Source: Opitutales bacterium
GTDB lineage: Bacteria > Verrucomicrobiota > Verrucomicrobiia > Opitutales > UBA2995
Reading direction: 5' to 3'
Assembly (NCBI GenBank): GCA_964291575.2
Contig: OZ219850.1
Span: forward strand, 170,808 to 234,807
DNA: 64,000 nt
Below, one piece after another: positions 2,633 to 63,586 of this stretch; within the stretch, counting starts at the first letter, position 1, and each line of letters starts with the position of its first letter. Under the pieces are notes generated by a model, which was not told the origin of the DNA, did no database searches, and worked only from the letters and a program-made list of their open reading frames with translations. A program made the position numbers and the translations under genes.

Positions 2633-4714
2633 ATGGCTGCAATAACAGATATGGTTGACCTGGAGATTCGAGACGGCGTGGCCGTCGTGCGGATTGATAA
2701 CCCTCCGGTAAACGCACTCAGTAGAGGTGTAAGAGATGGTTTGTTTGGAGCGATCACGCAGGCGGATGCAGATGAGGCTGCCGTGGCAATACTCATCATC
2801 TGCGAGGGCCGTACCTACATTGCCGGTGCGGACATCAAAGAATTTGGCAAACCTCAGGAAGGCACCTCGCTCTTTAAAGTCCAAGAGGTCATTGAGGGTG
2901 CATCCAAACCCGTGATATCCACAATTCATGGTACTGCTTTGGGTGGCGGATTGGAAGTCGCCCTCACCTGTCACTACCGCGTCGCGGTTGCTTCGGCCAA
3001 ATTCGGCTTGCCGGAAGTGCATTTGGGAATCCTTCCCGGTGCCGGAGGAACTCAACGCCTGCCAAGGGTCGTAGGCGTGGAACCGGCCATGGAGATGATG
3101 GTGAGTGGCAAACCTGTGAACGCAAAATTCGCCCTCGCAAACGGCCTCATTGATGAAATCGTCGACGATCTATTCGAAGGCGGCATGGCCTTTGCGAAAA
3201 AAGTCGCGGCCGAAGGAGGACCACTGGTCAAAGTCCGAGACAACAACGAGAAGCTCGAGGAAGCCAAGCAGGACGCGGAGCTCTTTGATCGATTTCGCAA
3301 GAAAATTGCCCGCAAGACACGAGGTTTTGACTCACCGGAAGCGATTATCCAATGCGTTGAGGACACCCTGACCAAATCGTTTGACGAAGGAATTTTGGCG
3401 GAACGTGAACGTTTCATGAAACTGATCACGGGTGCGAAGTCGGAAGCCCAACGCTACTATTTCTTCTCGGAACGACTGGCGAACAAGATCCCGGACGTCC
3501 CCAAAGATACCCCCACTATTCCGATTAAAAAAGTAGGCATGATCGGTGCCGGAACCATGGGTGGCGGTATCTCGATGAACTTTATTTCGAGAGGCATTCC
3601 TGTCACCATCGTGGAACACAAACAAGAAGCCCTGGACCGCGGATTGGCAGTGGTGCGCAAAAATTATATGCGGGGAGTCAAGAGCGGACGTACGACCGAA
3701 GAGAAAGTCGATGAGATGATGAGTCTCTTTACCCCCTCCCTCAACTTGGAAGACCTGGCCGACTGCGACCTGATCATCGAAGCCGTGTTCGAGCTCATGG
3801 ACATTAAGAAAGAAGTCTTCACCAAACTCGATGAAATTGCCAAAGACGGCGCTATACTGGCCACCAATTCTTCCGCGCTGGATGTTAATGAAATTGCCTC
3901 GGTCACCAAACGTCCCGAATGGGTCTTGGGGACTCACTTCTTCAGTCCCGCCAATATTATGCGCTTACTGGAAGTAGTCCGCGCCGACAAAACATCCAAA
4001 ACGGTTTTGGCCACAATCATGGGTTTATCAAAGTTCTTGGGCAAGGTACCGGTCGTCTCCGGAGTATGCCCCGGATTCATAGGCAATCGCATGCTCTTTC
4101 AAAGAGGTTATCAGACCAACAAATTGATTTTAGATGGAGCCATGCCCTGGGATGTGGACCGCGTTGTCTATGACTTTGGATTGCCCATGGGACCGTTCGC
4201 CATGTCCGACCTGGCGGGACTCGATATCGGCTGGGACCCCAGAACATCCAAGGGCGAAACGATTCGGGATCGACTTTGTGAAATGGATCGACGCGGACAA
4301 AAGACAGGCGCGGGTTTTTATAATTACGATCCTGAAACGAGGGCCAAATCACCCGATAAAGACGTGGAAGATCTCATCCTGGAATTCTCCGAGAAACAAG
4401 GCATCGTCCGACGCGAATTCAGCGACGAAGAAATCCTACAGCGATGCACTTACTCAATGATCAATGAAGGAGCAAAGATCCTGGATGAAGGCATGAGTCA
4501 ACGCCCCAGCGACATCGACGTTGTATGGGTAAATGGATACGGCTGGCCCACCTACCGTGGAGGGCCTATGCACTATGCGGATACGATCGGCCTGGAGAAC
4601 ATTCTGGCAACACTCATGCAGTTCCAGGAGCAGGACCAGGACGATTTCTGGCAACCTTCTCCACTGATCGAACGACTGGTAGCAGATGGAACAGGATTTA
4701 AGGACATGAATTAA
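2633..4714 (+). CDS. bifunctional enoyl-CoA hydratase / 3-hydroxyacyl-CoA dehydrogenase (FadB/FadJ-like)
   Basis: 693 aa. N-terminal crotonase domain (IDNPPVNAL, IAGADIKEF). Central Rossmann KKVGMIGAGTMGGGI plus 3HCDH C-terminal domains. Confidence 0.92.
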   Translation: MAAITDMVDLEIRDGVAVVRIDNPPVNALSRGVRDGLFGAITQADADEAAVAILIICEGRTYIAGADIKEFGKPQEGTSLFKVQEVIEGASKPVISTIHGTALGGGLEVALTCHYRVAVASAKFGLPEVHLGILPGAGGTQRLPRVVGVEPAMEMMVSGKPVNAKFALANGLIDEIVDDLFEGGMAFAKKVAAEGGPLVKVRDNNEKLEEAKQDAELFDRFRKKIARKTRGFDSPEAIIQCVEDTLTKSFDEGILAERERFMKLITGAKSEAQRYYFFSERLANKIPDVPKDTPTIPIKKVGMIGAGTMGGGISMNFISRGIPVTIVEHKQEALDRGLAVVRKNYMRGVKSGRTTEEKVDEMMSLFTPSLNLEDLADCDLIIEAVFELMDIKKEVFTKLDEIAKDGAILATNSSALDVNEIASVTKRPEWVLGTHFFSPANIMRLLEVVRADKTSKTVLATIMGLSKFLGKVPVVSGVCPGFIGNRMLFQRGYQTNKLILDGAMPWDVDRVVYDFGLPMGPFAMSDLAGLDIGWDPRTSKGETIRDRLCEMDRRGQKTGAGFYNYDPETRAKSPDKDVEDLILEFSEKQGIVRREFSDEEILQRCTYSMINEGAKILDEGMSQRPSDIDVVWVNGYGWPTYRGGPMHYADTIGLENILATLMQFQEQDQDDFWQPSPLIERLVADGTGFKDMN

Positions 4715-8205: not shown

Positions 8206-8695
8206 AGCAAAATATCCAAGAACTGGATACAAAGGGTGTTACAATCCAAAAAAGAGTTATAATGCACCATAATTTCCATGATAGTACAAATCCACTCGAA
8301 TCCAAAGTCAGTTGTTTACCAGATATGGATTTCACACTCCGCAATCACAGCAACTTGCACCTTATATCATAAAAATACATTCAGCTGCTGCCTCCATCTA
8401 GCAAACCATCCAGTTTAACACTTAAAGAATAAAATGATATGCCAAGTCTAGAAAACCACTCTGAAATACTTCATACTTCGCACCACTCAACGTATCGATT
8501 GCCTCTACGCCAGAAAGGCTCGAAGCTCAAGCCAAGGCGGCCTGAGCCTTCGGCGCATCCCACAGGCTGATCAAAACTGAAGGCGCCCGTGGTGGCAAGG
8601 CCGCCGCATGACCGAAATCCAGCATCAGGCTTAAAATTTGCCCCGAGGTGAGATTGAAAGCCGCCGCAAGACGCGAATCGAGCGCAACTGAGAAA

Positions 8696-8786
8696 ATAAT
8701 CAGAAATTTATTCCTTGACTCAAAGCATCGAATTCAAATAAAAAACGCAAAATATCCATAATCGGAAATTTAATCCTTGACTCAAA
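8696..8786 (+). promoter_or_regulatory. two 29-nt direct repeats ATAATCRGAAATTTAWTCCTTGACTCAAA (TTGACT -35-like core) in the AT-rich leader of the TonB receptor gene
   Basis: Copies at 8696-8724 and 8758-8786 are 27/29 identical by eye. They lie about 210-300 bp upstream of ATG 8998. Confidence 0.25.
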
Positions 8787-14072: not shown

Positions 14073-14358
14073 ATTCCATGTGCGCTCAATCGAATCGGCA
14101 GTATGTGGAAGCTTTTGTTTGTTGATCAGTTGGAAGGTAAGCCGGTCGATTGCGCAACTGCGGAGCAAGGGCTATGGGCGGTTGCGGCTTAGCGTTCGAT
14201 TTCTTTTGGGTTGAGCATTGGTTTCATCGGAAAACTCTACTTAATGCGCCAATAGCGATGATCGTATACTGCCCCGCATTATTTCCAAATTATCACCCGT
14301 CCGGATTGTTTGGTTTGCCCAATTAGGCGCGTTGCCGGGAATACTGTGACGGATTGTC

Positions 14359-14626
14359 GTAACTACCCAGGTATCTCAATCTATGGTCCGCAAGGATGTG
14401 ATTACCATATTACGAAACTGTAGGAGGGGGTTTATCCCGCGATTGCTAGGAGGCCGTTCAGAGAGATCGCGGCATAAAGCCGCTCCTACAGCTCTCCAAG
14501 TCGTTGATTTTTCCATCATTCCATCACTCCATTACTCCCTCCCCCAATCTTTGCGTCCTTTGCCTCTTGGCGTCTTTGCGAGAGACTCCTCTTCACAGGC
14601 CAAGCTATGGAGACCTGAGTAGTTAC
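14359..14626. mobile_element. MITE-like non-autonomous element, copy 1 (268 bp)
   Basis: Terminal inverted repeats GTAACTACCCAGGT...ACCTGAGTAGTTAC. Flanked by a perfect 8-bp direct repeat GGATTGTC (14351-14358 and 14627-14634). Internal long hairpin CTGTAGGAGGGGGTTTATCCC.... Confidence 0.8.
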
Positions 14627-14716
14627 GGATTGTCTTGCTTTATCAAGTCCAATCCGAAAGGATGGACTTCATCAATCGACCGTCAAGCGAAAGTTATAAT
14701 TCCCAATCGTTTTCAC

Positions 14717-15841: not shown

Positions 15842-16236
15842 TCCTTTAGAAATTAACCTAAGTCACCTCAATACTTCCAATCGAGATCGCTGTATCCGAT
15901 TTATTCATACACTTAACCCACATATTTCATAAAATTCGTGGGCGAGCGAACGGAGGTCGAGTGCTGGTGTGGGCTTTGCGCCGATGAGGGGGTGAAGCTG
16001 GGTCGACACCCTGCAAGGTCCCGAATCAAGGGAAGTCCGCTCCAGTGCCGACATACCGGAGCGCAGTAGAAGATTTGTGTATTATGCGGGTTAAGTTCCG
16101 GAAACCAACAAACGGACGATGAAAAATCTGCAGGTTTTCGATCCTGCACACAACGCAATCTTGCGAGAAACACCTTCCTTCTTGATGTAGATCAAATTTA
16201 TCACAAGGCAGTTCAAACAGCCTTCATTTAAACTTG

Positions 16237-16262
16237 AATTCTACCGTACGGTCGGTAGAATT
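16237..16262. promoter_or_regulatory. palindrome AATTCTACC-N8-GGTAGAATT, site 2
   Basis: Perfect 9-bp arms, ending 22 nt upstream of the GH31 ATG, just downstream of the ROK regulator gene. Confidence 0.35.
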
Positions 16263-18728: not shown

Positions 18729-18821
18729 ATGGTAAAACACAAGAATCGTAGAAATTTCCTTAAAGCAGCTGGCCTCGGCATAGCACTCGACGAAAACAAA
18801 TTGGAAAAGTACAAAGTCTGA
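18729..18821 (+). pseudogene. orphan 30-codon ORF consisting only of a twin-arginine signal peptide (remnant of an exported enzyme)
   Basis: MVKHKNRRNFLKAAGLGIALDENKLEKYKV*. RRNFLK is the canonical Tat motif. GGAG lies 6 nt upstream. Below the 60-aa cut-off of the track. Confidence 0.4.
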
Positions 18822-22561: not shown

Positions 22562-22809
22562 TCGTCTCCCCACCAGGTCTCTTCCGGACGGATATTCTCC
22601 TTAAGGTACTCTTGGTCCATCTGCATTAAACCCGGTGTCTTGGGAACATCGATATAACTGTCTGTCACAACTACGGGTTCTTTTCCCATGAGTTCGGTTC
22701 ATTGGCTGTCTCTCGAGCTTGCAAGCTCGACGCTCTTTCGGAAATCTTCAGGTATCCGGACCGGCTTGGAAGATGTACGCGATCTCGGACTCTCCATGCT
22801 TGTTCTCTT

Positions 22810-23102
22810 GTAACTACTCAGGTATCTTAAACAATCGCCCCATGGATGATTTATAGATAGTAAATTACTAACCTGTAGGAGGGGGTTTATCCCCCGATTG
22901 CAGTGAGGCACGTTTGGAAGATCGGGGGATAAACCCCCTCCTACAGTTCTCCAAGTCTTGTTGATTTTTCGATTATACCAATACTCCATTACTCCATCAT
23001 CCCCCCCCCTCATTCTTTGCGTCCTTTGCCTCTTGGCGGCTTTGCGAGAGACTCCTCTTCACGTTCCCCCTCAGGCTAGGCTATGGAGACCTGAGTAGTT
23101 AC
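22810..23102. mobile_element. MITE-like element, copy 2 (293 bp)
   Basis: Same TIRs as copy 1 (GTAACTACTCAGGT...ACCTGAGTAGTTAC). Perfect 8-bp flanking direct repeat GTTCTCTT (22802-22809 and 23103-23110). Perfect 26-bp internal hairpin. Confidence 0.85.
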
Positions 23103-23130
23103 GTTCTCTTTTCTTTCGATTCAAGCTTGT

Positions 23131-23154
23131 ATTTTAACGAACGGTCGGTAGAAA
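23131..23154. promoter_or_regulatory. degenerate copy of the ATTCTACC-N8-GGTAGAAT palindrome, site 3
   Basis: ATTTTAAC GAACGGTC GGTAGAAA. The right half plus spacer closely matches site 2 (ACGGTCGGTAGAA). It ends 12 nt before the thiolase ATG. Confidence 0.25.
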
Positions 23155-24377: not shown

Positions 24378-24608
24378 CTAGTGTGGTGTCCCAGAAATTC
24401 CCTTGCACGCCCGTCGGGGTCATGCCGTAGAAAAGTGATGCCTTACGAAAGAAAAGGGTCGGGTCAAAAAAACTGTATTCCGTTGTACTCCATACACTTT
24501 TACAAGACGACCGATCCTGTAAGGCATAACTTTTTACGTCTTGACCCCTTCTCCCGCGACCTCGAAACTCGCAGTTTATGTGAATGAATTTACAGGACAC
24601 CACACTAG
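24378..24608. repeat. 231-bp element bounded by perfect 14-bp inverted repeats CTAGTGTGGTGTCC (family B), copy 1
   Basis: TIRs at 24378-24391 and 24595-24608. The core recurs in inverted orientation at 42641-42788. No clear target-site duplication. Confidence 0.7.
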
Positions 24609-24724
24609 TTACAACTGAACCTTCAGACGGTTGAATTTGTGGATCCTGCTCTCTTTGTGCAGTAGGTCTTTCCGGGCCAGATAGTCAAACACTTCGACGG
24701 CTTCCGTCAGGCGCCGTTTTCCTG

Positions 24725-24793
24725 TCCATCCATGTCCATCCATGTTAATTCTAATTCCTAATTCCTAATTCCTAATTGGCGCCAACGGCGCCT
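24725..24793. repeat. micro-tandem word array: (GTCCATCCAT)x2, (TTCCTAA)n, GGCGCC-AAC-GGCGCC hairpin
   Basis: Read directly. The hairpin at 24778-24792 ends 1 nt from the sulfatase stop codon. Confidence 0.85.
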
Positions 24794-26215
24794 TCATCCT
24801 TCTCCAGGCCAATGTGGGGATGGCACGTGCTCGGATCTGAGGCGTCTTTCCAAGTCATTCGCGATTTCCGGATATTGCCCGGATACATCGGACTCTTCCC
24901 TGGGGTCCACCTCCAGGTCATACAATTCCAATGGGCCATCCAGGCCGTAGCGAACCGCCTTCCACTTGCCCAATCGTCCCGCCTGCCAGAGCCGTTTTCT
25001 GGGAAATTCCCAGTAGAGGAACCGTGTTGAGAGATCCTGGGGTTCCCCCCGAAGGGTCGGCGCCAAGCTGACTCCGTCAAGGTCCACGGGCAGCGGGGCT
25101 CCGGTCAGCTCCGCAAAAGTAGGGAGAATGTCCGCGAACATCCAGACCGTTTCATCGGTTGCCCCGGCCTCCACCTCGCCCGGCCACCTCACGATGAGGG
25201 GAACGTTGAGACCGCCCTCGTAAACCGTGCCTTTCCTTCCCCTTTTTCCTGCATTCGAGTCGAGAAACACCGTCCGGTCATTATTCACCGCCCCGTTGTC
25301 CGAGGTAAACATGACCAGCGTCTCTTCGGTAATTCCCAATCGTTCCAGCTCTTCCATTATTTCGCCCAGGTATCCGTCCAGACGCGACACCATGGCGGCA
25401 TAGATCTTGAACGGTTCCGGCCAATCCTCCTCCTCATAGGGACCAAGGGATGGCACTTCCATAAGGGCGTGGGGAATGGTGAAGGGAAGGTAGAGAAAGA
25501 ATGGTTCTTCCCTGTGCCGGCGCATGAAATCGAGGGCAAAATCGCGCATCAGGTCGTTGGAATACACTTGCCGTCTTCCACCCTGGTTTTCGGGAATGGC
25601 CATCTTTTCGCGGTTCCTCCAAAGAAAATCCGTGTAATAGTAGGAAGCGTGATTCTGATTGAGGTACCCCAGCCACTCATCGAAGCCCATGTGAGTCGGT
25701 GTCCCCACCGAAGTCGGCTCCCCTATTCCCCATTTGCCGGCCGCTCCCGTGGCATAGCCGGCTTCTTTTAGAACCGAGGCGACAGTCGGTTCATCCCCGA
25801 TCAATGATAACCGCATGCTGCCTTCCCCGAATTGCTCCAATTCGCCTCCCACTTGCGGTCCATTTCCCCGAATGCGGGCATGCCCCGCGTGCAGGCCCGT
25901 CATCAACACACAGCGGGAAGGAGCGCACACCGGCGAACCGGCATAGAATTGGGTAAACCGGGTTCCCTGTTCCGCCAGCCGGTCAATATGCGGGGTGAGA
26001 ATCTGATCCCCTCCAAAACAACCGAGATCTCCATATCCCAGATCATCCGCCATAATGAAGATGATATTGGGCTTGGTCGGGAAAGATTCCGCCCACACCA
26101 CCGATTGAATTGAACCGCAGAGGACACAGAGGAAAAAGCTCGCCAAGGCGCGCCAATCAGGAATTAGGAATGAAGAATGAGGAATTGGGAGAAGATGATG
26201 AACCACAGAGGACAT
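24794..26215 (-). CDS. sulfatase (formylglycine-dependent, arylsulfatase-A-like)
   Basis: IIFIMADDLGYGDLGCFG and CAPSRCVLMTG (C-x-P-x-R) motifs. The start is set at the first ATG giving a hydrophobic leader (26215). The track ORF extends to 26389 through repeats. Confidence 0.88.
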   Translation of the reverse strand: MSSVVHHLLPIPHSSFLIPDWRALASFFLCVLCGSIQSVVWAESFPTKPNIIFIMADDLGYGDLGCFGGDQILTPHIDRLAEQGTRFTQFYAGSPVCAPSRCVLMTGLHAGHARIRGNGPQVGGELEQFGEGSMRLSLIGDEPTVASVLKEAGYATGAAGKWGIGEPTSVGTPTHMGFDEWLGYLNQNHASYYYTDFLWRNREKMAIPENQGGRRQVYSNDLMRDFALDFMRRHREEPFFLYLPFTIPHALMEVPSLGPYEEEDWPEPFKIYAAMVSRLDGYLGEIMEELERLGITEETLVMFTSDNGAVNNDRTVFLDSNAGKRGRKGTVYEGGLNVPLIVRWPGEVEAGATDETVWMFADILPTFAELTGAPLPVDLDGVSLAPTLRGEPQDLSTRFLYWEFPRKRLWQAGRLGKWKAVRYGLDGPLELYDLEVDPREESDVSGQYPEIANDLERRLRSEHVPSPHWPGEG

Positions 26216-26479
26216 AGAGAGCACAGAGGGGGAGGAATGCAAAGGAAGAAGGCAGAAGGCAGAATGGGATCCACGAAGGACACGAAGAGGCGCGAAGAAA
26301 ATTTCGATCACGATCAAGATCAAGATTCGCCTCTCTTTCCTCTTCACTCTTTCCTCTTTCCTCTGGAGCGAAGCGACTTCCTCCCTCATTCTTTGCGTCC
26401 TTTGCCTCTTGGCGGCTTTGCGAGAGACTCCTCTTCACGTTCCCCCCCTCAGGCCAGGCTATGGAGACCTGAGTAGTTA
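26116..26479. repeat. mosaic word array ending in the right half of the MITE; overlaps the 5' end of the sulfatase CDS
   Basis: Words present: CCTCTGTGTCCTCTG, GGCGCGCC, (TTCCTAA)n in reverse orientation, (GATCAx)n, and CTTTGCGTCCTTTGCCTCTTGGCGGCTTTGCGAGAGACTCCTCTTCACGTT...GGAGACCTGAGTAGTTAC. Confidence 0.85.
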
Positions 26480-26740
26480 CCAAATCCTGCTAACATTCCA
26501 CCAGCGGGAGGTTCGAAAAACCATTTGTTGGGAAATGTCTGCATGGTCGCCGCCTGGTTTCCCTTTTCTTAGCTGGAATTTATGCGACCTCATCTCCGGT
26601 GGCACATCCACCAGATAATCTTTGTAAATCTGGAATTCATTCCAATTCTGCAAGAAATGCCCGGTGGCCAGATCATTTGGCACCCTTTTCAGGATGAAAG
26701 CATTCAGTGGACTAACTTGAAAAATAACGTTGATTTTCAA
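26477..26740 (-). CDS. possible degenerate RelE/HigB-like (killer-protein-like) toxin; very tentative
   Basis: 87 codons from a TTG. Only a loose by-eye resemblance of ...VDVPPEMRSHKFQLRKGKPGG..ISQQMVFRT to the ..LH.LKG.RKG.WS..IN.QWR..F pattern. Confidence 0.2.
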   Translation of the reverse strand: MKINVIFQVSPLNAFILKRVPNDLATGHFLQNWNEFQIYKDYLVDVPPEMRSHKFQLRKGKPGGDHADISQQMVFRTSRWWNVSRIW

Positions 26741-26800
26741 GATAATTACACTCAGCTTGGTAAGTGCGCAGGGCACGCAAAAACGAAGAAAGGCATTACC

Positions 26801-27058
26801 ATGAAAAACCATAAGGAAATCACGACGGAAGAATTTGACCGCCTGTTCGACGCTGGCAAAGACATCAGCGACATGGTCGACTGGTCGAAAGGCAAGCGTT
26901 TGCATGGCGGCAAGCGGCCTGGGTCAGGGCGCAAAGCCACTGGGCGCAAACCCTATACCGTTCGCCTTCAGCCTGAAGTTCACACCAAGATTCAGCAGCG
27001 GGCAAAAAAGAAAGGGATCAGCATTTCCGAATACATCGAAGAGTTGGCAAGCCGGTGA
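26801..27058 (+). CDS. ribbon-helix-helix (CopG/BrnA-like) antitoxin-type protein
   Basis: 85 aa. N-terminal EEFDRLFDAGKDISDMVDWSKGKR resembles BrnA-type antitoxins. C-terminal KPYTVRLQPEVHTKIQQRAKKKGISISEYIEELA is an RHH fold pattern. AAAGG lies upstream of the ATG. Confidence 0.55.
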   Translation: MKNHKEITTEEFDRLFDAGKDISDMVDWSKGKRLHGGKRPGSGRKATGRKPYTVRLQPEVHTKIQQRAKKKGISISEYIEELASR

Positions 27059-27265
27059 GGGTTTCCAATGTCTCCGATTAATTCCCCTTTCACGGCTGAT
27101 GATGAACCCGATTCCCTTAAAAATGCTACTCCCACACCAAGCTACGGGGTATCTAAGCACTTTTATCCGCCACTAAGCGGGGGACCGGAAATCGGGGACG
27201 TGCTATTACCGCCTCCAGGTGAGCCGGGCCTTTGACCTGTCCGATTAATATTGAAAACAAATTAA

Positions 27266-27605
27266 ACAGATTTACACGGATAAAGCGCCAACGGCGCCCG
27301 CATTTGTGCCCCTTCGTGTCCTCCGTGGATCTAATTTCTATTCAGCCTTTAACCTTCAGCCTTCAGCCCCTCTCTCAGCATCTCTTTTCCTTTGTGCCTT
27401 TTAATTCCTAATTGGCGGCCACGGCGCCTTTTGTGGAACCCCGTTGGGGTTCGTATTTTTTCCGATTCCTACCCAGTGTGCGTTTTGCGACACTGGGCTT
27501 TGGAGTGGAACTGCTTTGCAGTTCATTCAAGACTACTTTCCTCTTTCCTCTTTCCACTTTCCTCTGGGCTCCAGCCCCCCTCTGTGTCCTCTGTGGTCTC
27601 TGTGG
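27266..27605. repeat. mosaic word array
   Basis: Contents: ACAGATTTACACGGATAA, GCGCC-AAC-GGCGCC, AGCCTTY repeats, TTCCTAATTGGCGGCCACGGCGCC, hairpins GAACCCC-GTT-GGGGTTC and CCCAGTGT..ACACTGGG, CTCTGTGTCCTCTGTGGTCTCTGTGGTTA. Confidence 0.85.
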
Positions 27606-28952
27606 TTAAAATTTCTCGGTTTTAGCCAGAGGATTCTCAAACCAGATCACACCGAGTTTGAGGTTTTCCTCCGAGGTGACCACATCCGGATCGCCATCCA
27701 GATCCACATCGCAAAGCTGCAAATTGTCGTATTTCTCCTCAATGCGGCCCGGGGATTCACGGATGTCATGCAGTTTCCAACTGCCAGTTGTCGGTGTATC
27801 GTCATACTCGAGCCAGGAGACACGCGAGCCGACGCCCACATGGGTCGTGAATACGAGATCCACCTTACCGTCCCCATTCACATCGCCACACGCGACTCCC
27901 TTGGTCCCATTCTTGTAACCGGAGAAAGGGCGTTCACCATCCACATGCACCGGGCAGGAGGTAAATTCTTTCCCGTAGGCATGATTTCGGTACCAAGTTG
28001 CTACACGACTGCTTTGAGTATCCCGGTAGTCGGTGGCAACTATGTCGACATGACCGTTGCCGTCGAAGTCCGTCAAGGCCAGGAATGAAGCGGTATCCCC
28101 AAAAAGATCCACAGTGTGCATCCTCCAGGGCAAGTCCGGCAAAAAATTCGGACTGGGGTTTTCCAACCAAGCCAGCACATGTCGGGCTCCGGTTACGATG
28201 TCGAGATCCCCATCGCCATCCATATCGACCGGTTCGATACTCATAATACTGGGGGTTTCATTTGAGATCACGTACTCCTCCCATTCCATCGCCCGCGGAT
28301 CCTTTGAGGCCCGATACCAGTAGAGAGTTGGACTCGGTGTGCCTTTGTTCATTGCTCCCCCAATTACATCCAGTCCAGCCTCTCCATCCAACTGTGCCAC
28401 TTCTACCTGAACCCAGAGTCGCGCCGCCCTGTCTAAGCGCGTGCGAGTCCATCCGGTCTCATCCAGGTAGTCATTTGACGGACCGGGAGCCCAATGAATA
28501 AACAGTTGGCGGGTTGTCTCACTGGCAGTGATCACGTCCATCGATCCATCGCCATTCAGATCCCCGAATTTGGAATCTTCAATATCCCCCGCATCCAAAA
28601 TCACGCGTTTCACCCACTCCCCTTCCTTGGAATCAGAGCTGCCAGGATTCAAATACACAATGGCTTTGGAGGCATGCTGCCAGGCCGCCACCACATCCGG
28701 ATATCCGTCGTTGTCAACATCTTCCACATCGATACCGTCAGCGCCTTTTCCCATAAGTGGTCCCTTGTGAATGAAATGCATGATCCATTCGGCATCCTCA
28801 GTTTCCGACCCTTCTCTTTCAATAGAAGGCTTTATTGAATCGGTCGCCGAATCAGGGTACCCACAGGCGGCACAAAAGGAAAAGAAAAGGCCAAGACCAG
28901 CGAGGATATGCCCCAATCGTCTGCACAACGCTTCTGTTCCGTTTACCTGCAT
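27606..28952 (-). CDS. FG-GAP/VCBS repeat (integrin-alpha-like beta-propeller) lipoprotein
   Basis: Six or more D-x-[DN]-x-D-G-x-x-D Ca-binding repeats (DVDNDGYPDVV, DLNGDGSMDVI, DMDGDGDLDIV, DFDGNGHVDIV, DVNGDGKVDLV, DVDLDGDPDVV). N-terminal signal with Cys. Confidence 0.85.
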   Translation of the reverse strand: MQVNGTEALCRRLGHILAGLGLFFSFCAACGYPDSATDSIKPSIEREGSETEDAEWIMHFIHKGPLMGKGADGIDVEDVDNDGYPDVVAAWQHASKAIVYLNPGSSDSKEGEWVKRVILDAGDIEDSKFGDLNGDGSMDVITASETTRQLFIHWAPGPSNDYLDETGWTRTRLDRAARLWVQVEVAQLDGEAGLDVIGGAMNKGTPSPTLYWYRASKDPRAMEWEEYVISNETPSIMSIEPVDMDGDGDLDIVTGARHVLAWLENPSPNFLPDLPWRMHTVDLFGDTASFLALTDFDGNGHVDIVATDYRDTQSSRVATWYRNHAYGKEFTSCPVHVDGERPFSGYKNGTKGVACGDVNGDGKVDLVFTTHVGVGSRVSWLEYDDTPTTGSWKLHDIRESPGRIEEKYDNLQLCDVDLDGDPDVVTSEENLKLGVIWFENPLAKTEKF

Positions 28953-29067
28953 CCTTGTCCCCCATTATTATCTGTCGCCATACCCGGACTAGGCAAGCGA
29001 CATCCCGCCGGATATCAAAGTTAGCGTTTGAATAAGCAGGCCGCCTGCGGGTAAGTTCCTTAACCGG

Positions 29068-30933
29068 ATGAAAGGCTTATTGTTATCCCGGTTCCTCAAT
29101 GCCCAACTGATATTGATAATTCTGCTTTGCCCCATCGTCGGGGCCGCCGCTACGGAAAGACCCAACATCCTCTGGATCATCGCTGAAGATGCTTCTCCCC
29201 ACATTGGATGCTATGGCGAAACCCTCATCAAAACGCCGCGGTTGGATCAGATGGCCAGTAACGGCATCCGCTTTTCCCAGGCTTTTGTTACCGCTCCAGT
29301 CTGCTCCCCCTGCCGCTCGGCCATGATTACCGGAATCTATCAAACGACCCTGGGAGCCCAAAACCACCGCAGCCAGCAAACCGCGCTCAAAGGCGGCGGC
29401 AATACCGCCTACTACGACAGCTACGAGTTGCCGGGGGCGGTTAAACTGGTTCCGGAGCTTTTTCAGAAAGCAGGCTATTTCACTACCCTGGGCGATGGAC
29501 CGGATTGCCGGAAGCTGGGCAAGACCGACTACAATTTTATTTTCGACCCTTCCGTTTATCACGGGGCCGACTGGCGACTCTGCCCGACCGACCGGCCGTT
29601 CTTCGCCCAAATCATGCTGAAAGGCGGGAAAGACTGGCAACGGGTTCAACGCAGGACCGACCCCGATCGTGTCCAACTGCCGCCCTACTATCCGAACCAT
29701 CCTGTTTTGCGCAAACGCTGGGCGGCTTACCTCGACAGTTGGACCAAACAGGACCGGGAAGTTGGCCAGATCCTCGACGATCTGGAGAAAGCCGGAGTCG
29801 CTGAAAATACCATCGTCTTTTTCTGGACCGATCACGGACTGACCCATGCAAGGGCCAAACAATTTCTCTATGACGAGGGTATCAAAATTCCCCTGCTGGT
29901 GCGTTTCGGGGACAAACGCATGAAGGGAACGGTGCGAGACGATCTGATCCTGCAAATCGACGTTGCCGCAACCTCCCTGGCGTTGGCTGGGATTTCAGCG
30001 CCGGACAATATGCATGGAAGGAATGTATTCCAGGCGAACTACACACCGCGCAGCATGGTCGTTTCCGCACGCGACCGATGCGATGAGACCGTAGACATAA
30101 TCCGCTGCATCCGCACGAATCGCTTCAAGTACATCCGCAACTTCATGTCCTATCGTTCCCATACGCAACCGAACGAATCAAAAGACGACGAGGATTTCCT
30201 GCTGACCCTGAGAGCGCTGCAGGATTCGGGTAAACTGACCGAACTGCAGAGCCGAATCCTCGCCCCCACCCGCCCCGTGGAAGAACTGTATGACCTGCGG
30301 TCAGATCCATTCGAAACCGTAAACCTGGCCAACCGCCCGGAGTTCCGGAATACGCTCATAGATTTGCGAAAACAATTGTATTCCTGGATGAAGGACAGCG
30401 GCGATACAGGACTAATCCCGGAGCCTATCCTGGAAGACATGGGCCGCACCTTCGACAATAAGTATTTTATCTTAAAACAACCGAGGCACAGAAATCTCAT
30501 AGGCAATCTCATCAACCTTATCGAGGCCGGTGAACAGGCCAAAACGGACCCCTTGAACAATGCGCTGATGTCGCCGGATCCTTCCCACCGTTATTGGGCA
30601 GCCACCTGGCTTGGGATTAACGGAGGCGAGGAAAGCATCCACCTCCTGGAGGAGAGGTTGATGGATCCGGTCCCCGCCGTCCGAATTGCGACCGCCCGTT
30701 CTCTACATCAGCTTGGCAGCGCCCAAAACACAGTCCAAATCATTGCAGACGAAATCGGTGATTATAACCTCATTAACGGACTATTTGCCATGCGCGCCCT
30801 GGAATGGATTGGCCACGATTCCACGCTGGAGCGCCAGCACATCGAGGAAGCACGGAATCATCCCTACGAATATGTCCGGCGCATCGCAAACCGCCTTTCT
30901 GCAACTGGCATTGACCGGAAAAGCGGAATATAA
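29068..30933 (+). CDS. sulfatase with C-terminal HEAT-repeat domain
   Basis: Signal peptide. ILWIIAEDASPHIGCYG and CSPCRSAMITG motifs. The C-terminal ~150 aa show HEAT-like repeats (PDPSHRYWAATWLG.., DPVPAVRIATARSL.., NHPYEYVRRIANRL). Confidence 0.85.
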   Translation: MKGLLLSRFLNAQLILIILLCPIVGAAATERPNILWIIAEDASPHIGCYGETLIKTPRLDQMASNGIRFSQAFVTAPVCSPCRSAMITGIYQTTLGAQNHRSQQTALKGGGNTAYYDSYELPGAVKLVPELFQKAGYFTTLGDGPDCRKLGKTDYNFIFDPSVYHGADWRLCPTDRPFFAQIMLKGGKDWQRVQRRTDPDRVQLPPYYPNHPVLRKRWAAYLDSWTKQDREVGQILDDLEKAGVAENTIVFFWTDHGLTHARAKQFLYDEGIKIPLLVRFGDKRMKGTVRDDLILQIDVAATSLALAGISAPDNMHGRNVFQANYTPRSMVVSARDRCDETVDIIRCIRTNRFKYIRNFMSYRSHTQPNESKDDEDFLLTLRALQDSGKLTELQSRILAPTRPVEELYDLRSDPFETVNLANRPEFRNTLIDLRKQLYSWMKDSGDTGLIPEPILEDMGRTFDNKYFILKQPRHRNLIGNLINLIEAGEQAKTDPLNNALMSPDPSHRYWAATWLGINGGEESIHLLEERLMDPVPAVRIATARSLHQLGSAQNTVQIIADEIGDYNLINGLFAMRALEWIGHDSTLERQHIEEARNHPYEYVRRIANRLSATGIDRKSGI

Positions 30934-31757
30934 ACCCTCGACTTCTTACTCTTCAGGCGGGTCCACGCGCCCCACGATCGCCCCACTTCCCGGTTTTTCT
31001 TCAGGATACTCCACAACACCCATGGTTCTGACGGATCCCAGGCAAAGGCCTGCCCTTCCGCCGGAATTTGAATGGTATCCACCCATTTCAAAATGGATCC
31101 TCCCTTGGGTATTTCCAGAGCGTAGAGTTCCTTTCGATCGTGGCCCGTTCCATAGAGTCTCCCATCCGGTCCGAAAGCGCCACCCGAGCAACCATAATTC
31201 TCGAATCTTGCAACCAACTCCGCCGGAAATACCCAAGCCGCCACCCGGCGCCATTGCTCATCAAACTTGACCACCTGCGTCCAACTGGGATCCTTGCCCG
31301 GTTCCGCCGCCCGATTCCCATAATAGACAAAGCCGGCATACCAGAACCCGGCCCTGCGGTCGACCCAGGTGATCGAGCCGAATCCGTGCCCGAAGCTGTG
31401 CGACTCGATATGCTCCAGTGTCTCCGCATCGAATACCTCCACCGAACTGGTGGATGGCACCCCCGGGTAGTTGGAATGGGCCGCATACAACCTGCCCTCA
31501 TGAAAGAATCCGTCGTTCATGTGAATGAGCGGATCCCCCTCCGGACATTCCCAGGAAGCAACCCTGACTCCATCCGACTTCCGGTACTTCCCAATGGCAA
31601 AATCGGAAACGACGTAGGCAAACTCGTCATCGACGGCGACACCCTGTTTCGCTTCCGGCACCGGAAAGCGCCTGATCTCCGCGTGTTTTCTTTCCGCATG
31701 AGAAAGTGGGCGGAAAATACTGAAAAATAGGGCAAAGCACAAAGCGGCGCGAGTCAT
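30864..31757 (-). CDS. exported hypothetical protein (beta-propeller-like composition)
   Basis: 297 aa with a signal peptide (ALCFALFFSIFRPLSHA). No motif I can name. The last ~23 codons overlap the 3' end of the convergent sulfatase gene and look like read-through. Confidence 0.55.
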   Translation of the reverse strand: MTRAALCFALFFSIFRPLSHAERKHAEIRRFPVPEAKQGVAVDDEFAYVVSDFAIGKYRKSDGVRVASWECPEGDPLIHMNDGFFHEGRLYAAHSNYPGVPSTSSVEVFDAETLEHIESHSFGHGFGSITWVDRRAGFWYAGFVYYGNRAAEPGKDPSWTQVVKFDEQWRRVAAWVFPAELVARFENYGCSGGAFGPDGRLYGTGHDRKELYALEIPKGGSILKWVDTIQIPAEGQAFAWDPSEPWVLWSILKKNREVGRSWGAWTRLKSKKSRVYIPLFRSMPVAERRFAMRRTYS

Positions 31758-38143: not shown

Positions 38144-38197
38144 TTCCGGTTAAATTGTTCACAAATCGGCGGACTTTTTCGAGGATGGAATGGTTAG

Positions 38198-38342
38198 ACG
38201 CGCAGAAGCGCGCCAATTAGGAATTAGGAATGAAGAATGAGGAATTGGGGAGAAGGAAGTTTTAAACTATTAGGCTCGGTGACAGAGCCAGGGTGTTTTA
38301 GCCGGAAAGAGGACTCTCGCAAAGTTCGCCAAGAACGCTAAG
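38198..38342. repeat. word array flanking the IS element on the left
   Basis: GCGCGCC, then AATTAGGAATTAGGAATGAAGAATGAGGAATTGGG (near-identical to 26149-26190), then CTCGCAAAGTTCGCCAAGAACGCTAAG. Confidence 0.8.
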
Positions 38343-39835: not shown

Positions 39836-39926
39836 TTGACCACATACCTGCTTTTTGTGGCTAAATTCCCATCCGTGGCTCTTCCTTGGCCAAAATTTGC
39901 CGCATCCACCCTTCAACCCTCAAATC

Positions 39927-40100
39927 GAAAAATTCCTAATTCCTAATTGGCGCCCCCTGGCGCCTCTTTGCGTTCTTGGCGATCTTTGCGAGAGGTAATT
40001 CCTCTGGGATTTTCGATCACTATCACGATTTATTTCAGCACCTTCAGCCATCAGCCTTTATAACCTCTGTGTCCTCTGTGCTCTCTGTGGTGATTTGTTT
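39927..40100. repeat. word array flanking the IS element on the right
   Basis: (TTCCTAA)n-TTGGCGCC-CCCT-GGCGCC, CTTTGCGTTCTTGGCGATCTTTGCGAGAGG, GATCAC units, AGCCTT units, CTCTGTGTCCTCTGTGCTCTCTGTGG. Confidence 0.85.
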
Positions 40101-44205: not shown

Positions 44206-44912
44206 ATTTGTGGAACCCCTTTGGGGTTCGATGATGGGGTGATCGGTAACCCAGCGTGCGCTGCGCGACACTGGGCTTTGGAGTTCAACGCCGTTGGCGT
44301 AAAAACCAGATCTTTGCATCGGTTGATTTCATTGCGCTTCGAGAATTTTGCGAGGAGTCATTTCCCTTCTCCAAGTCGGTGGTTTTTCGATCAAGATCAT
44401 GATCAAGATCACGATCACGATGATTTACTTCGTGCCCCTTCGTGGATCCAATTCCCTTTCAGCCTTTAGCCTTCAACCTTCAGCCTTTAGAATCCTTTGT
44501 GCCTTTGTGCCTTTTCATTCCTAATTCCTAATTGGCGCCAACGGCGCCCCTCCTCTTTCCACTTGGCGCGTCAGCGCTCCCCCCTCCTACAGCTCTCCAA
44601 GTCATTGATTTTTCCACCACTCCACCATTTCTCTTTCCATGGGGGACAGGAATGTCCCCCCTCCGTTACTCCATCACTCCCCCACTCCATCACTCCATCA
44701 CTCCACCACTCCACCACTCCCCCACTCATTCTTTGCGTCCTCTGCCTCTTGGCGGCTTTGCGAGATGCCCCTCTTCACGTTTCCCCCTCCTTTATTTCTG
44801 CGCTAATCTGCGTCATCTGCGGTTCCTCTCCCTCTCAGCATCTCAGCAACTCTTCCAATTCCTAATTCCTAATTCCTAATTCCTAATTGGCGCGAAGCGC
44901 CTTTAGCCTTCA
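44206..44912. repeat. largest mosaic word array (~0.7 kb), includes an internal MITE fragment
   Basis: Order: GAACCCC hairpin, CCCAG..CTGGG hairpin, (GATCAx)n, AGCCTTY units, TTTGTGCC x2, (TTCCTAA)n-GGCGCC hairpin, MITE interior (CCTCCTACAGCTCTCCAAGTC...), GGGGGACAGGAATGTCCCCC palindrome, (CCAYCACTC)n, CTTTGCG... word, AATCTGCG units, CATCTCAGC units, (TTCCTAA)4-TTGGCGCGAAGCGCC, AGCCTT units overlapping the stop codon of 44910. Confidence 0.9.
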
Positions 44913-56605: not shown

Positions 56606-56644
56606 GTAACTACTCAGGTAGTTTAAACAATGGTCCGTCCCAGG

Positions 56645-58181: not shown

Positions 58182-58215
58182 GCTTCTCGTGGCCATTTCC
58201 ACTTCTTGGACCAGG

Positions 58216-62641: not shown

Positions 62642-63586
62642 AAAAAATTTCTTGTTCGTGAAGCGATCCTGTTCCGGCGCGGCCGGATCAAGCGAAGCGT
62701 TGTCAGAAAAACTTTGCGATTCTTTGCCATTCTTTGCGTGCTTTGCGAGAGTCAAATTTGATCAGGATCAAGACTTTGCAGGGGACTGGAATGTCCTCTC
62801 TCCTTAATTCAATTGTAACTACTCAGGTCTCCAAAGCCTAGCCTGCATTTCTACCAAATTTTCATGGGATAGGGATGGAGGAGGGAGGATAAGGAATGAT
62901 GGAGTAATGGAGTGATGGAGTGATGGAGTATTGGAGTGATGGAGTGATGGAGTGATGGAATAATGGAATGTGGCGGAATCAGGATATAACGGAGAGGGGG
63001 TTTTCCATTGGATTTAACGGAGGGGGGACATTCCTGCCTGTCACGCCGGGAGGCGGATCCCCCATAACCCATAAAACAGGGGGTTGGAAACCCCCCTCTC
63101 CTTTAAATCCCAGTTGAAGAAAAAGGGGTCAAACGCAAAATGTTGAAATCGACCGCTAGCGTTCCCTCCTCCATCCAGATTTTAACATTTTGCGTTTGAC
63201 CCCTTTTTCGGTCGCACTCTCATTCTTTGCGTCCTTTGCCTCTTGGCGGCTTTGCGAGAGACTCCTCTTCACGTTTCCCTCCCAGTTGAAAATTCAATCC
63301 GTAATTATCCGTCCTCATCCGTGTAATCCGTGGTTGGTTCCTTTCAGCCTTTAGCCTTCAACCTTCAGCCTTTAGAATCCTTTGTGCCTTTGTGCCTTTG
63401 TGGATTCAATTCCTAATTCCTAATTGGCGCCAACGGAGCCTGTGCCTTCTTCTCTGCGATAATCTGCGTAATCTGCAGTTGGTGGTAAAAATTTTTTTGC
63501 GCTTTTTGTGCCTTTTGTGGTTCCCTTTTTCCTTACTGGCCGAAAAACCTGGCCGCGAAGCAACTGAATAGAACCATCCGTCCAAA
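62642..63586. repeat. mosaic word array (~0.95 kb) between divergent genes
   Basis: Inverted MITE right end at 62816, (GGAGTGATG)n, GGGGGGACATTCC palindrome half, AGGGGGTT-GGAA-ACCCCCCT hairpin, family C hairpin, CTTTGCG... word, CCGTGTAATCCGTGG, AGCCTTY units, TTTGTGCC x3, (TTCCTAA)n-TTGGCGCC, AATCTGCG units. Confidence 0.9.
63120..63208. repeat. family C hairpin, copy 3
   Basis: Same 31-nt arms as copy 1. The loop differs at a few positions. Confidence 0.9.

What the first reader, a model, noticed from the sequence alone, without database searches (positions are those of the whole stretch)
14351..14634. MITE with 14-nt terminal inverted repeats and 8-bp target-site duplications; two intact copies, both just upstream of genes
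Copy 1 (14359-14626) is flanked by GGATTGTC on both sides. Copy 2 (22810-23102) is flanked by GTTCTCTT on both sides. Both begin GTAACTAC[CT]CAGGT and end ACCTGAGTAGTTAC. Different duplicated flanks at two loci are the signature of transposition rather than recombination. No cognate transposase is in the window (the IS110 element makes no such TIR/TSD). Isolated left ends (56607) and right ends (26456-26479; inverted at 62816) and interior fragments (44575-44800) are embedded in the word arrays, so this element is one source of the vocabulary. Copy 1 sits about 90 bp before the ROK regulator start and copy 2 about 60 bp before the thiolase start, so they may donate promoters or leaders.
Basis: seen in the sequence. 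Interest (0 to 1): 0.65.

Follow-up and report, generated by a model that had tools for sequence, protein, structure and literature searches.

The report
IS66-type MITE, recently inserted twice
Two copies of a small non-coding jumping element sit in front of two genes; closely related strains have the same sites empty, so both insertions are real and probably recent, but this is a new member of a familiar class, not a new kind of system.

Summary
Copy 1 (14359-14626, 268 bp) and copy 2 (22810-23102, 293 bp) have 14-nt terminal inverted repeats, GTAACTACYCAGGT and ACCTGAGTAGTTAC. Each is flanked by its own perfect 8-bp duplication (GGATTGTC; GTTCTCTT).

Contigs about 99% identical to the window carry a single copy of each 8-mer and no element. 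Copy 1 is precisely absent in three contigs and missing in two more; copy 2 is precisely absent in two.

The family can now be named. The same 14-nt ends bound 1.5-kb insertion sequences in metagenomes. Each encodes one 479-486-aa IS66-family transposase and makes 8-bp duplications. They match the published single-gene ISBst12-group element ISDge4. The window has no such transposase, so the element is non-autonomous here.

Homologous elements occur in at least four Opitutales-class genomes, three of them with perfect 8-bp duplications.

The conserved core is an inverted pair of GTAG-type REP palindromes almost identical to the Pseudomonas putida REP consensus.

Nothing supports the idea that the element donates promoters. 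It carries the genome's intergenic repeat "words" as much as it supplies them.

Verdict: a real, probably recently mobilised MITE and a new member of a known kind.

The parts
14351..14358 (.). Left target-site duplication of copy 1 (GGATTGTC)
   Evidence: The 8-mer is present once in the empty alleles L041, L042 and L045.
14359..14626 (+). MITE copy 1, 268 bp. End A (resembles the right end of the parent IS) is on the left and end B (resembles the IS left end) on the right.
   Evidence: Absent from five conspecific contigs.
14359..14372 (+). Terminal inverted repeat, end A, of copy 1 (GTAACTACCCAGGT)
14418..14491 (.). Core hairpin of copy 1: an inverted pair of GTAG-type REP units, with GTAG on the outside, around a 22-nt spacer. 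The arms differ at 3 positions.
   Evidence: REP features and the P. putida consensus.
14512..14546 (+). Short tandem octamer array (TCCATYAY units) inside copy 1
   Evidence: families D2, D6.
14547..14596 (+). The roughly 50-nt module (A/T)TCTTTGCGTCC...GAGAGACTCCTCTTCAC, which also occurs outside the element
   Evidence: D2, D3: about 7 copies in the window.
14613..14626 (-). Terminal inverted repeat, end B, of copy 1 (ACCTGAGTAGTTAC on the + strand)
14627..14634 (.). Right target-site duplication of copy 1 (GGATTGTC)
22802..22809 (.). Left target-site duplication of copy 2 (GTTCTCTT)
   Evidence: Present once in the empty alleles L043 and L046.
22810..23102 (+). MITE copy 2, 293 bp, same orientation as copy 1
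   Evidence: Absent from L043 and L046.
22873..22946 (.). Core hairpin of copy 2: a perfect inverted pair of GTAG-type REP units (26-nt arms, 22-nt spacer)
23103..23110 (.). Right target-site duplication of copy 2 (GTTCTCTT)
26376..26480 (+). Truncated copy: the 50-nt module plus end B with its terminal repeat (26467-26480). No end A.
   Evidence: 96% identical to copy 2 over 101 nt.
44575..44790 (+). Interior fragment without ends: the tail of the right REP arm, the octamer array and the 50-nt module
56606..56643 (+). Solo end A (repeat plus 24 subterminal nt) fused to a different 91-nt palindromic module. It abuts the start codon of the Fe-ADH gene on the minus strand.
62815..62975 (-). Inverted partial copy: end B, its subterminal segment and an expanded octamer array of about 11 units. 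It lacks the 50-nt module.
   Evidence: (D1).

Best explanation
This is a non-autonomous derivative (MITE) of an IS66-family insertion sequence of the single-gene, ISBst12-like group, living in a marine Opitutales-like (Verrucomicrobiota) genome. A DDE transposase of that group, encoded elsewhere in the genome or now lost, would bind the two GTAACTACTCAGGT ends and insert the element with a staggered cut that is repaired into an 8-bp duplication. Both window copies were most likely inserted recently in this strain's lineage, into intergenic DNA 91 and 63 nt ahead of the ROK and thiolase start codons. The element has four parts. End A is about 60 nt and resembles the right end of the parent IS. 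A conserved core follows, made of an inverted pair of GTAG-type REP palindromes. Next comes a variable region that takes up the genome's intergenic repeat modules and an expandable octamer. End B is about 35 nt and resembles the IS left end. Shown here: the repeats, the duplications, the empty sites, the link to the IS family, and the absence of a transposase from the window. Inferred: mobilisation in trans, the direction of change (insertion rather than excision), and the absence of any regulatory role.
For: (1) Both copies have 14-nt terminal repeats and different perfect 8-bp duplications. (2) Empty sites exist in conspecific contigs that are about 99% identical to the window in the aligned flanking DNA. 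A single GGATTGTC is found in L041, L042 and L045. A single GTTCTCTT (or GTTCTCTA) is found in L043 and L046. L047 and L048 also lack copy 1. (3) The identical 14-nt ends bound 1.5-kb elements in metagenomes that encode one 479-486-aa protein (L021, L027, L036; L022 has a 12/14 right end). These proteins match NCBIfam NF033517 'IS66 family transposase' at 282-298 bits against a cut-off of 180, and Pfam DDE_Tnp_IS66 plus DUF6444 (with zf-IS66 in two of the three). L027 has the duplication GAAAAATT, L022 has a 7/8 duplication, and L015 has the ends GTAACTACTCAG with the duplication AAAAATAC. (4) The published ISDge4 (IS66 family, ISBst12 group, single transposase gene) has the terminal repeats GTGACTACTCAGCA and GTAACTGCTCAGCA and an 8-bp direct repeat (PMC12898284). 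(5) End B of the MITE (GTAACTACTCAGGTCTCCA) equals the transposase-proximal end of those elements, and end A resembles their distal end. This fits an origin by internal deletion. (6) Homologous MITEs occur in Opitutales and Opitutia genomes. Three have perfect 8-bp duplications (L003, L009, L012), and three copies in one genome are 98-100% identical, indicating a recent burst there. (7) The window has no IS66 transposase, by Pfam scans of 39 ORFs and translated searches.
Against: The full-length elements come from unassigned metagenome contigs and from proteobacterial contigs, and only 8-kb pieces of the relatives could be read. Four of the nine intact Opitutales-lineage copies lack a duplication (L006, L008, L011, L013). 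No independent assembly carrying a filled allele was seen. The polymorphism could in principle reflect precise excision in the other strains. Upstream of the copy-1 site the strains differ by other small rearrangements, and L041 and L042 show odd short joins that may be assembly artefacts.
Confidence: 0.88

Rival explanations
1. The polymorphism reflects loss, not gain. The element was ancestral at both sites and was precisely excised in the other strains, for example by slippage between the 8-bp duplications helped by the terminal repeats and the hairpin. On this reading the window copies are old rather than recently inserted.
For: The 8-bp direct repeats and a strongly folding element (z = -5.2 and -6.8) are a good substrate for slippage. 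L047 and L048 show that a deletion between GGATTGT repeats may have happened at this very locus. Copies 1 and 2 are only 79% identical.
Against: Copy 1 is absent from all five other contigs, drawn from five different sequence data sets, and copy 2 from both others. The duplications are perfect. A more distant Opitutales chromosome has only 112 bp upstream of its ROK gene and no element, although its gene context differs. About 35 kb of syntenic sequence from other strains contains no terminal repeat at all.
Confidence: 0.1
2. The mobile unit is really the REP pair at the core (a REPIN), moved by a REP-associated tyrosine transposase (RAYT). The outer repeats and the flanking 8-mers would then be incidental.
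For: The core is a head-to-head pair of GTAG-tagged palindromes almost identical to the P. putida REP consensus. Such pairs also occur outside elements bounded by the terminal repeats, at L012 1744-1817, L006 2385-2498 and as a single unit in L043. Opitutus terrae is reported to be rich in GTAG REPs.
Against: The empty sites lack the whole 268- or 293-bp unit exactly from one terminal repeat to the other, leaving one 8-mer. From established knowledge, HUH/Y1-type transposition does not create 8-bp duplications. The outer repeats match those of IS66 elements. No Y1 transposase was found in the window.
Confidence: 0.03
3. Beyond being mobile DNA, the copies have been co-opted as regulatory elements, acting as a promoter, leader, attenuator or mRNA-stabilising hairpin for the ROK regulator and thiolase genes.
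For: Both window copies lie 91 and 63 nt upstream of co-oriented genes. A 26-27-bp hairpin would fold strongly in any read-through transcript. The solo end A at 56606 abuts a start codon. MITEs and REP pairs are reported to affect neighbouring gene expression in other bacteria (background section of PMC3733652).
Against: No sigma-70-like promoter or terminator lies inside either copy. Orientation relative to neighbours is mixed across nine copies, and two lie between convergent genes. Conspecific strains do without both insertions. No Rfam family matches.
Confidence: 0.1
4. The repeats are a by-product of recombination among the genome's mosaic intergenic repeat arrays, not of transposition.
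For: The element's interior is a mosaic of modules found elsewhere, and truncated or chimeric copies exist. Intergenic arrays differ greatly between strains.
Against: There are precise insertions with different perfect 8-bp duplications, single-copy 8-mers at the empty sites, and ends identical to those of transposase-encoding IS66 elements.
Confidence: 0.01

Closest known systems
ISBst12 group of the IS66 family (e.g. ISDge4 of Deinococcus geothermalis, PMC12898284; the 1.5-kb elements in loci L021/L027, L022 and L036)
   Same: The terminal sequence is GTAACTACTCAG..., identical over 14-19 nt to the L021/L027 and L036 ends. Duplications are 8 bp. End B matches the transposase-proximal end and end A resembles the distal end.
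   Different: The window element has no transposase gene and is 268-293 bp instead of about 1.5 kb. Its interior is unrelated to the IS: a REP pair, an octamer array and repeat modules. The host lineage is Opitutales, and no autonomous copy was seen there.
Classical bacterial MITEs (RUP, Correia/NEMIS, ERIC, Nezha and others, as listed in PMC3733652)
   Same: It is small and non-coding, has terminal inverted repeats and target duplications, lies in intergenic DNA close to genes, folds strongly, exists in several copies, and depends on a transposase supplied in trans.
   Different: The parent family is IS66/ISBst12. I found no description of a MITE from that family in the searchable literature. 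The element is unusually modular, and its variable region differs between genomes.
REPINs, i.e. head-to-head pairs of GTAG-1-type REPs (Pseudomonas putida REP consensus; Bertels & Rainey REPIN concept, cited in PMC3733652)
   Same: The core consists of two inverted units of the form GTAG + GA + 5-bp stem + TTTAT/TTTAC loop + stem + GAT, separated by 21-22 nt. The stems vary by compensating changes within each unit. One unit, TTGTAGGAGCGGGTTTATCCCGCGAT, is nearly identical to the reverse complement of the P. putida consensus.
   Different: Here the pair is cargo inside a DDE-type MITE. The polymorphic unit is the whole element bounded by the terminal repeats and flanked by an 8-bp duplication. 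No RAYT gene was seen. The spacer occurs in both orientations relative to the MITE ends.

Membership tests
Bacterial MITE | Short (under about 500 bp) and non-coding | tested here: met
   268 and 293 bp. There is no ORF conserved between the copies; the only long ORF overlapping copy 2 (22699-23013, minus strand) has no counterpart at copy 1.
Bacterial MITE | Terminal inverted repeats | tested here: met
   14 nt, perfect in copy 2 and 13/14 in copy 1.
Bacterial MITE | Target-site duplications of fixed length that differ between copies | tested here: met
   GGATTGTC and GTTCTCTT in the window; CTTTCAAA, GATTGCAT and GAAAAAAG in L003, L009 and L012. Four of the nine intact copies lack one.
Bacterial MITE | Presence/absence polymorphism with a precise empty site | tested here: met
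   L041, L042 and L045 for copy 1; L043 and L046 for copy 2.
Bacterial MITE | Ends shared with an autonomous, transposase-encoding element | tested here: met
   1.5-kb elements with identical 14-nt ends that encode IS66-family transposases.
IS66 family, ISBst12-like group (as a non-autonomous derivative) | Ends begin with GTAA and follow the GT(A/G)ACT(A/G)CTCAG pattern | tested here: met
   GTAACTACTCAGGT compared with ISDge4 GTGACTACTCAGCA / GTAACTGCTCAGCA and with the ends of L015, L022, L027 and L036. That IS66-family ends begin with GTAA is recalled from ISfinder and was not checked here.
IS66 family, ISBst12-like group (as a non-autonomous derivative) | 8-bp target duplication | tested here: met
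   IS relatives; ISDge4.
IS66 family, ISBst12-like group (as a non-autonomous derivative) | Full-length relatives encode a single IS66-type DDE transposase, without tnpA and tnpB | tested here: met
   One 479-486-aa ORF fills each 1.5-kb element. NF033517 scores 282-298 bits; Pfam finds DDE_Tnp_IS66 and DUF6444.
IS66 family, ISBst12-like group (as a non-autonomous derivative) | A cognate transposase in the same genome that can act in trans | not testable with these tools
   None in the 64-kb window or in the Opitutales loci held.
REP / REPIN (core hairpin only) | GTAG tetranucleotide at one end of a short palindrome; compensating stem changes | tested here: met
   CT-GTAG-GA-GGGGG-TTTAT-CCCCC-GAT, with stem variants GGGGC/GCCCC, GCGGC/GCCGC and GCGGG/CCCGC, each self-complementary.
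REP / REPIN (core hairpin only) | Inverted pair with GTAG ends outside and a spacer of 20-100 bp | tested here: met
   The spacer is 21-22 nt in 11 pairs and 62 nt in L006b.
REP / REPIN (core hairpin only) | Association with a RAYT (Y1 transposase) gene | tested here: not met
   No Y1_Tnp hit among 39 window ORFs. The rest of the genome could not be tested.
IS110 family (the only transposase in the window) | Would have to produce these terminal repeats and 8-bp duplications | not tested
   The IS110-type gene at 38654-39835 was identified, but its ends were not mapped and no MITE-type terminal repeat lies near it. That DEDD-type IS110 elements lack such repeats and duplications is established knowledge, not a result obtained here.

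The most novel reading that the evidence does not exclude
The element may be a nested hybrid of two non-autonomous mobility systems: a DDE-type (IS66/ISBst12) MITE whose conserved cargo is a REPIN-like pair of Pseudomonas-type GTAG REPs. Each MITE jump would then seed new REP sites, and with them the octamer and other repeat modules, into intergenic DNA. Those sites could recruit RAYT or REP-targeting insertion sequences, or act as RNA hairpins. On this reading the MITE would drive the growth and strain-to-strain turnover of the mosaic intergenic repeat arrays of this lineage.
Probability: 0.12. Interest if true: 0.55.

Novelty: new member of a known kind. Interest (0 to 1): 0.38.

Why it matters
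The result gives a clean, population-verified example of recent MITE mobilisation in an uncultured marine Verrucomicrobiota lineage. It assigns the element to the little-studied single-gene (ISBst12-like) branch of the IS66 family, for which I found no MITE described. The two insertions are ready-made strain markers. They also form natural filled-versus-empty pairs for asking whether a MITE placed 60-90 nt upstream of a gene alters expression of a ROK regulator and a thiolase. The REP-pair cargo and the module-swapping variable region may help explain how the unusual intergenic repeat arrays of these genomes spread. None of this changes how such elements are understood to work.

Tried and rejected
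(1) An exact look-up of the thiolase protein found no record. It was solved through a homologue search.

(2) An exact 25-nt empty-site pattern for copy 1 found nothing in metagenome contigs. The real empty alleles differ by two SNPs within the pattern and were reached through proteins instead.

(3) Rfam at gathering thresholds gave no match anywhere in the window, and there are no tRNA genes.

(4) Sigma-70 promoter and terminator scans found nothing inside either copy.

(5) Translated searches with IS66 transposases against the window and all Opitutales loci gave only noise, with E of 0.2 or higher. The autonomous partner in this lineage was therefore not found.

(6) The metagenome scan with the 19-nt end B returned no further Opitutales-type MITEs, only IS66 elements and a few unrelated short elements.

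(7) ROK cluster members with N-terminal extensions (P0304) were checked in the hope of an independent filled allele. They turned out to be another MITE-less allele.

(8) Literature searches for an IS66- or ISBst12-derived MITE, and for MITEs in Verrucomicrobia, found none. The one MITE mentioned beside IS66 elements makes a 4-bp repeat and is unrelated.

(9) An IS110 origin was considered and set aside. This rests on the IS66 match of the ends, plus general knowledge of IS110 elements.

(10) A REPIN/RAYT origin was considered and rejected because of the structure of the empty sites.

Full report
1. THE OBSERVATION

Reading the sequence confirms both copies exactly as described.
- Copy 1 runs from 14359 to 14626 (268 bp). 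It begins GTAACTACCCAGGT, ends ACCTGAGTAGTTAC, and has GGATTGTC on both sides (14351-14358 and 14627-14634).
- Copy 2 runs from 22810 to 23102 (293 bp). It begins GTAACTACTCAGGT, ends ACCTGAGTAGTTAC, and has GTTCTCTT on both sides (22802-22809 and 23103-23110).

The copies align over their full length. Mean column identity is 85% and global pairwise identity is 79%. Similarity stops exactly at the terminal repeats.

The 14-mer, allowing up to 2 mismatches, occurs 7 times in the window against 0.23 expected, and no shuffle reached 7. The other three hits are partial copies:
- an end-B fragment at 26376-26480;
- a solo end A at 56606-56643;
- an inverted end B with an expanded octamer array at 62815-62975.

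An interior fragment without ends lies at about 44575-44790. Everything else is accurate.

2. THE DECISIVE TEST: EMPTY SITES

I reached conspecific contigs through the flanking genes.

For copy 1, the ROK protein has identical or near-identical copies in several assemblies.
- L041 (Logan SRR33343654), L042 (ENA ERZ23495174) and L045 (a 3.14-Mb contig from ENA ERZ25069412) are 99.3-99.4% identical to the window downstream of the site.
- At the site they read ...CTGTGAC GGATTGTC TTGCTTTGTCAAG.... That is one GGATTGTC and no element.
- L047 (a TARA scaffold) and L048 also lack the element. They additionally lack window 14310-14350, where the window has a third GGATTGT at 14303-14309.

For copy 2, the thiolase homologue P0179 (98% identical) led to L043. 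A cluster member led to L046, which lies on the same 3.14-Mb contig as L045.
- Both are 99% identical to the window on each side of the site.
- Both read ...CTCCATGCTT GTTCTCT(T/A) TTCTTTCGATTC.... Window 22802-22809 and window 23103-23110 both map onto this single 8-mer.

So both insertions are polymorphic within one species-level population, and each 8-mer is a true target-site duplication. None of L041-L043 (about 31 kb in all) contains the terminal repeat.

There are three caveats. The DNA just upstream of the copy-1 site differs between strains through other small rearrangements. L041 and L042 contain short odd joins and an N-gap that may be assembly artefacts. I found no second assembly carrying a filled allele.

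3. WHICH FAMILY

A scan of one genome per species with the 19-nt end B found homologous elements only in Opitutales and Opitutia genomes (L003, L006, L008-L013). Short unrelated elements with the same ends turned up in two Elusimicrobiota genomes. In a betaproteobacterial genome the same ends bound a 756-bp element (L007) that encodes the N-terminus of an IS66-type transposase.

A relative of L007 on a Rhodoferax-type contig (L015) has the ends GTAACTACTCAG... and the 8-bp duplication AAAAATAC.

The same scan of metagenomes found elements of about 1.5 kb bounded by the identical 14-nt repeats. These are L021, L027, L035 and L036; L022 has a 12/14 right end, L018 carries a degraded copy, and L030 is 2.5 kb.
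- In L021, L027, L036 and L022, one ORF of 479-486 aa fills the element.
- These proteins match NCBIfam NF033517 'IS66 family transposase' at 282-298 bits against a cut-off of 180. They also match Pfam DDE_Tnp_IS66 and DUF6444, with zf-IS66 in two of the three.
- They are only 36-47% identical to each other, so the terminal sequence is conserved across a deep branch of the family.
- L027 has the duplication GAAAAATT and L022 a 7/8 duplication.

The published ISDge4 is described as IS66 family, ISBst12 group, with a single 449-aa transposase. Its terminal repeats are GTGACTACTCAGCA and GTAACTGCTCAGCA, and it makes an 8-bp direct repeat (PMC12898284).

End B of the MITE (GTAACTACTCAGGTCTCCA...) equals the transposase-proximal end of these elements. 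End A (GTAACTACTCAGGTATCTT...) resembles their distal end. This fits an origin by internal deletion of such an IS.

The window itself encodes no IS66 transposase. Pfam scans of 39 ORFs found only one IS110-type transposase, at 38654-39835. Translated searches with four full-length IS66 transposases gave only noise.

4. ANATOMY AND FAMILY BEHAVIOUR

Nine intact copies were compared: two from the window and seven from the relatives. They share four parts.
- End A, about 60 nt.
- A 74-nt core hairpin.
- A variable region.
- End B, about 35 nt.

Five of the nine have perfect 8-bp duplications. L003, L006 and L012 come from one genome and are 98-100% identical, which indicates a recent burst there.

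The core hairpin is CT-GTAG-GA-GGGGG-TTTAT-CCCCC-GAT, then a 21-22-nt spacer, then the inverse of the first arm.
- Each arm is a small palindrome in its own right.
- Its 5-bp stem varies as GGGGG/CCCCC, GGGGC/GCCCC, GCGGC/GCCGC or GCGGG/CCCGC. Complementarity within the arm is almost always kept, even when the two arms of a pair differ.
- This matches the published description of GTAG-tagged REPs: the GTAG end, two 'GW' extra bases, a 3-bp tail, compensating stem changes, and head-to-head pairs 20-100 bp apart. The same paper reports that Opitutus terrae is highly enriched in such repeats (PMC3733652).
- One unit, TTGTAGGAGCGGGTTTATCCCGCGAT, is almost base-for-base the reverse complement of the Pseudomonas putida REP consensus ...TTCGCGGGtaaaCCCGCtCCtaCaggg (PMC11585281).

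The spacer occurs in both orientations relative to the MITE ends. One orientation is seen in window copies 1 and 2 and in L011. The other is seen in L003, L006, L008, L009, L010, L012 and L013. Both orientations occur within one genome. Inversion across the inverted arms would explain this.

Such pairs also occur outside MITEs, in L012, L006 and L043.

The variable region differs between genomes.
- In the window it holds a TCCATYAY octamer array. The array appears to have grown from the segment TCAATCACCATCCC of the shorter copies and reaches about 11 units at 62893-62975.
- It also holds a 50-nt module that occurs about 7 times in the window, mostly outside MITEs.
- In L009 and L013 the same region carries other intergenic modules: the ATTCCTAA...GGCGC hairpin and CCTCTGTG...GGTTAA.

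The element is therefore a carrier of the 'vocabulary' as much as its source.

5. FUNCTION

The best-supported account is a selfish one: mobilisation in trans by an ISBst12-like IS66 transposase, with 8-bp duplication. The transposition chemistry of this family is poorly characterised, and I infer rather than show the trans-mobilisation step.

For a regulatory role I found nothing positive.
- There is no sigma-70-like promoter or terminator inside either copy.
- There is no Rfam match.
- All nine copies are intergenic, but their orientation relative to neighbours is mixed and two lie between convergent genes.
- Conspecific strains lack both insertions.

The element would fold strongly if transcribed (z = -6.8 and -5.2), so effects on read-through transcripts cannot be excluded.

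Copy 2 sits just upstream of an operator-like palindrome at 23119-23153 that is also found ahead of two other genes. The insertion leaves that palindrome intact.

6. COMPARISON AND NOVELTY

The element meets every MITE criterion I could test. It also meets the sequence-level criteria for derivation from the ISBst12-like group of the IS66 family. The one criterion that could not be tested is the presence of a cognate transposase in the same genome.

The core meets the structural criteria for a head-to-head REP pair, but no RAYT gene was seen. I therefore describe it as REPIN-like cargo, not as a functioning REPIN.

Searches of the available literature found no MITE attributed to IS66 or ISBst12, and none described in Verrucomicrobia. 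ISfinder could not be consulted.

This is a new member of a known kind. It is well supported and modestly interesting, mainly as a verified, probably recent mobilisation event and for its REP-pair cargo.

7. HOST

The host assignment is an inference. The gene content is sulfatases, TonB-dependent receptors, GH31 and PSD1. The closest named thiolase hits, at 75-76% identity, are from Opitutaceae, Opitutae and Verrucomicrobia. MITE homologues occur only in Opitutales and Opitutia genomes. One conspecific scaffold comes from a TARA sample. Together these point to a marine Opitutales-like bacterium. The source genome itself was not in the collections searched.

Noticed in passing
window 16226-16260, 23119-23153, 2497-2531: An operator-like palindrome, TTCTACCG-N6-CGGTAGAA (family D15), lies just upstream of the GH31 gene. 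More degenerate versions lie upstream of the thiolase and of the 2633-4714 fatty-acid oxidation gene. It may be the binding site of a shared regulator, perhaps the adjacent ROK protein. MITE copy 2 is inserted 8 nt upstream of the thiolase copy.
   Followed up: no
window 56644-56734, 63119-63209, 58211-58303: A separate 91-nt near-perfect palindromic repeat, GAAAAAGGGGTCAAACGCAAAATGTTGAAATC...GATTTTAACATTTTGCGTTTGACCCCTTTTTC, in three copies that are 92-97% identical. One copy is fused to the solo MITE end A and overlaps the last codons of the sulfatase ORF 56707-58080.
   Followed up: no
window 56603-56619: The solo end A (GTAACTACTCAGGT at 56606) directly abuts the predicted ATG of the Fe-dependent alcohol dehydrogenase gene (55457-56605, minus strand). 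That gene's entire 5' leader would therefore be MITE sequence.
   Followed up: no
window 58028-58181: A perfect tandem duplication of a 77-bp unit (two 100% identical copies; D17) spans the predicted start of the sulfatase gene 56707-58080.
   Followed up: no
window 14075-14350 versus L041, L042, L045, L047, L048: The 280 bp upstream of the copy-1 site differs in every strain examined, through segment replacements and deletions. The window has a third GGATTGT at 14303-14309, and L047 and L048 look like a deletion between such repeats. L041 and L042 also show short odd joins that may be assembly artefacts.
   Followed up: partly
window 22696/22697 and 18771-18781 versus L043 and L041: The window lacks a 1.6-kb block (HAD hydrolase and short-chain dehydrogenase genes; L043 8400-10027) only 113 bp left of MITE copy 2. 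Its class II aldolase gene is truncated (169 aa against 260 aa). It also lacks a 1.2-kb MR_MLE gene that L041 and L043 carry at window position ~18781.
   Followed up: partly
window 24605-30936 versus L043 and L046: Identity to conspecific contigs drops sharply, from about 99% (up to 24382) to 87-92% across the sulfatase and FG-GAP genes. This suggests a recombined or horizontally replaced tract. The intergenic repeat arrays in between cannot be aligned between strains.
   Followed up: no
L004 2781-2928 and L005 145-313 (Elusimicrobiota); L023 496-572; L029 31-274: Short elements of 77-244 bp with the same or nearly the same 14-nt terminal repeats but unrelated interiors occur in other phyla. 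None has a flanking duplication. They may be independent MITEs derived from ISBst12-like elements.
   Followed up: partly
L004 2775-2780, L006 4401-4406, window 14351-14356: GGATTG lies directly against end B in L004 and L006 and forms the first six bases of copy 1's duplication; L009's duplication is GATTGCAT. This could be a target preference or a coincidence.
   Followed up: no
window 38654-39835 and flanks 38196-38253, 39925-39971: The IS110-type transposase gene is embedded in the AATTCCT...GGCGCC repeat arrays. IS110-family elements are reported to target REP-like palindromes in Pseudomonas. The ends and target of this element were not mapped.
   Followed up: no
window 8512-8697 versus L003 4211-4398: A 188-nt intergenic stretch upstream of the TonB-dependent receptor gene is 87% identical to a stretch in a different Opitutales genome. 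It was the strongest non-MITE match between the window and the related loci. Its nature is unknown.
   Followed up: no
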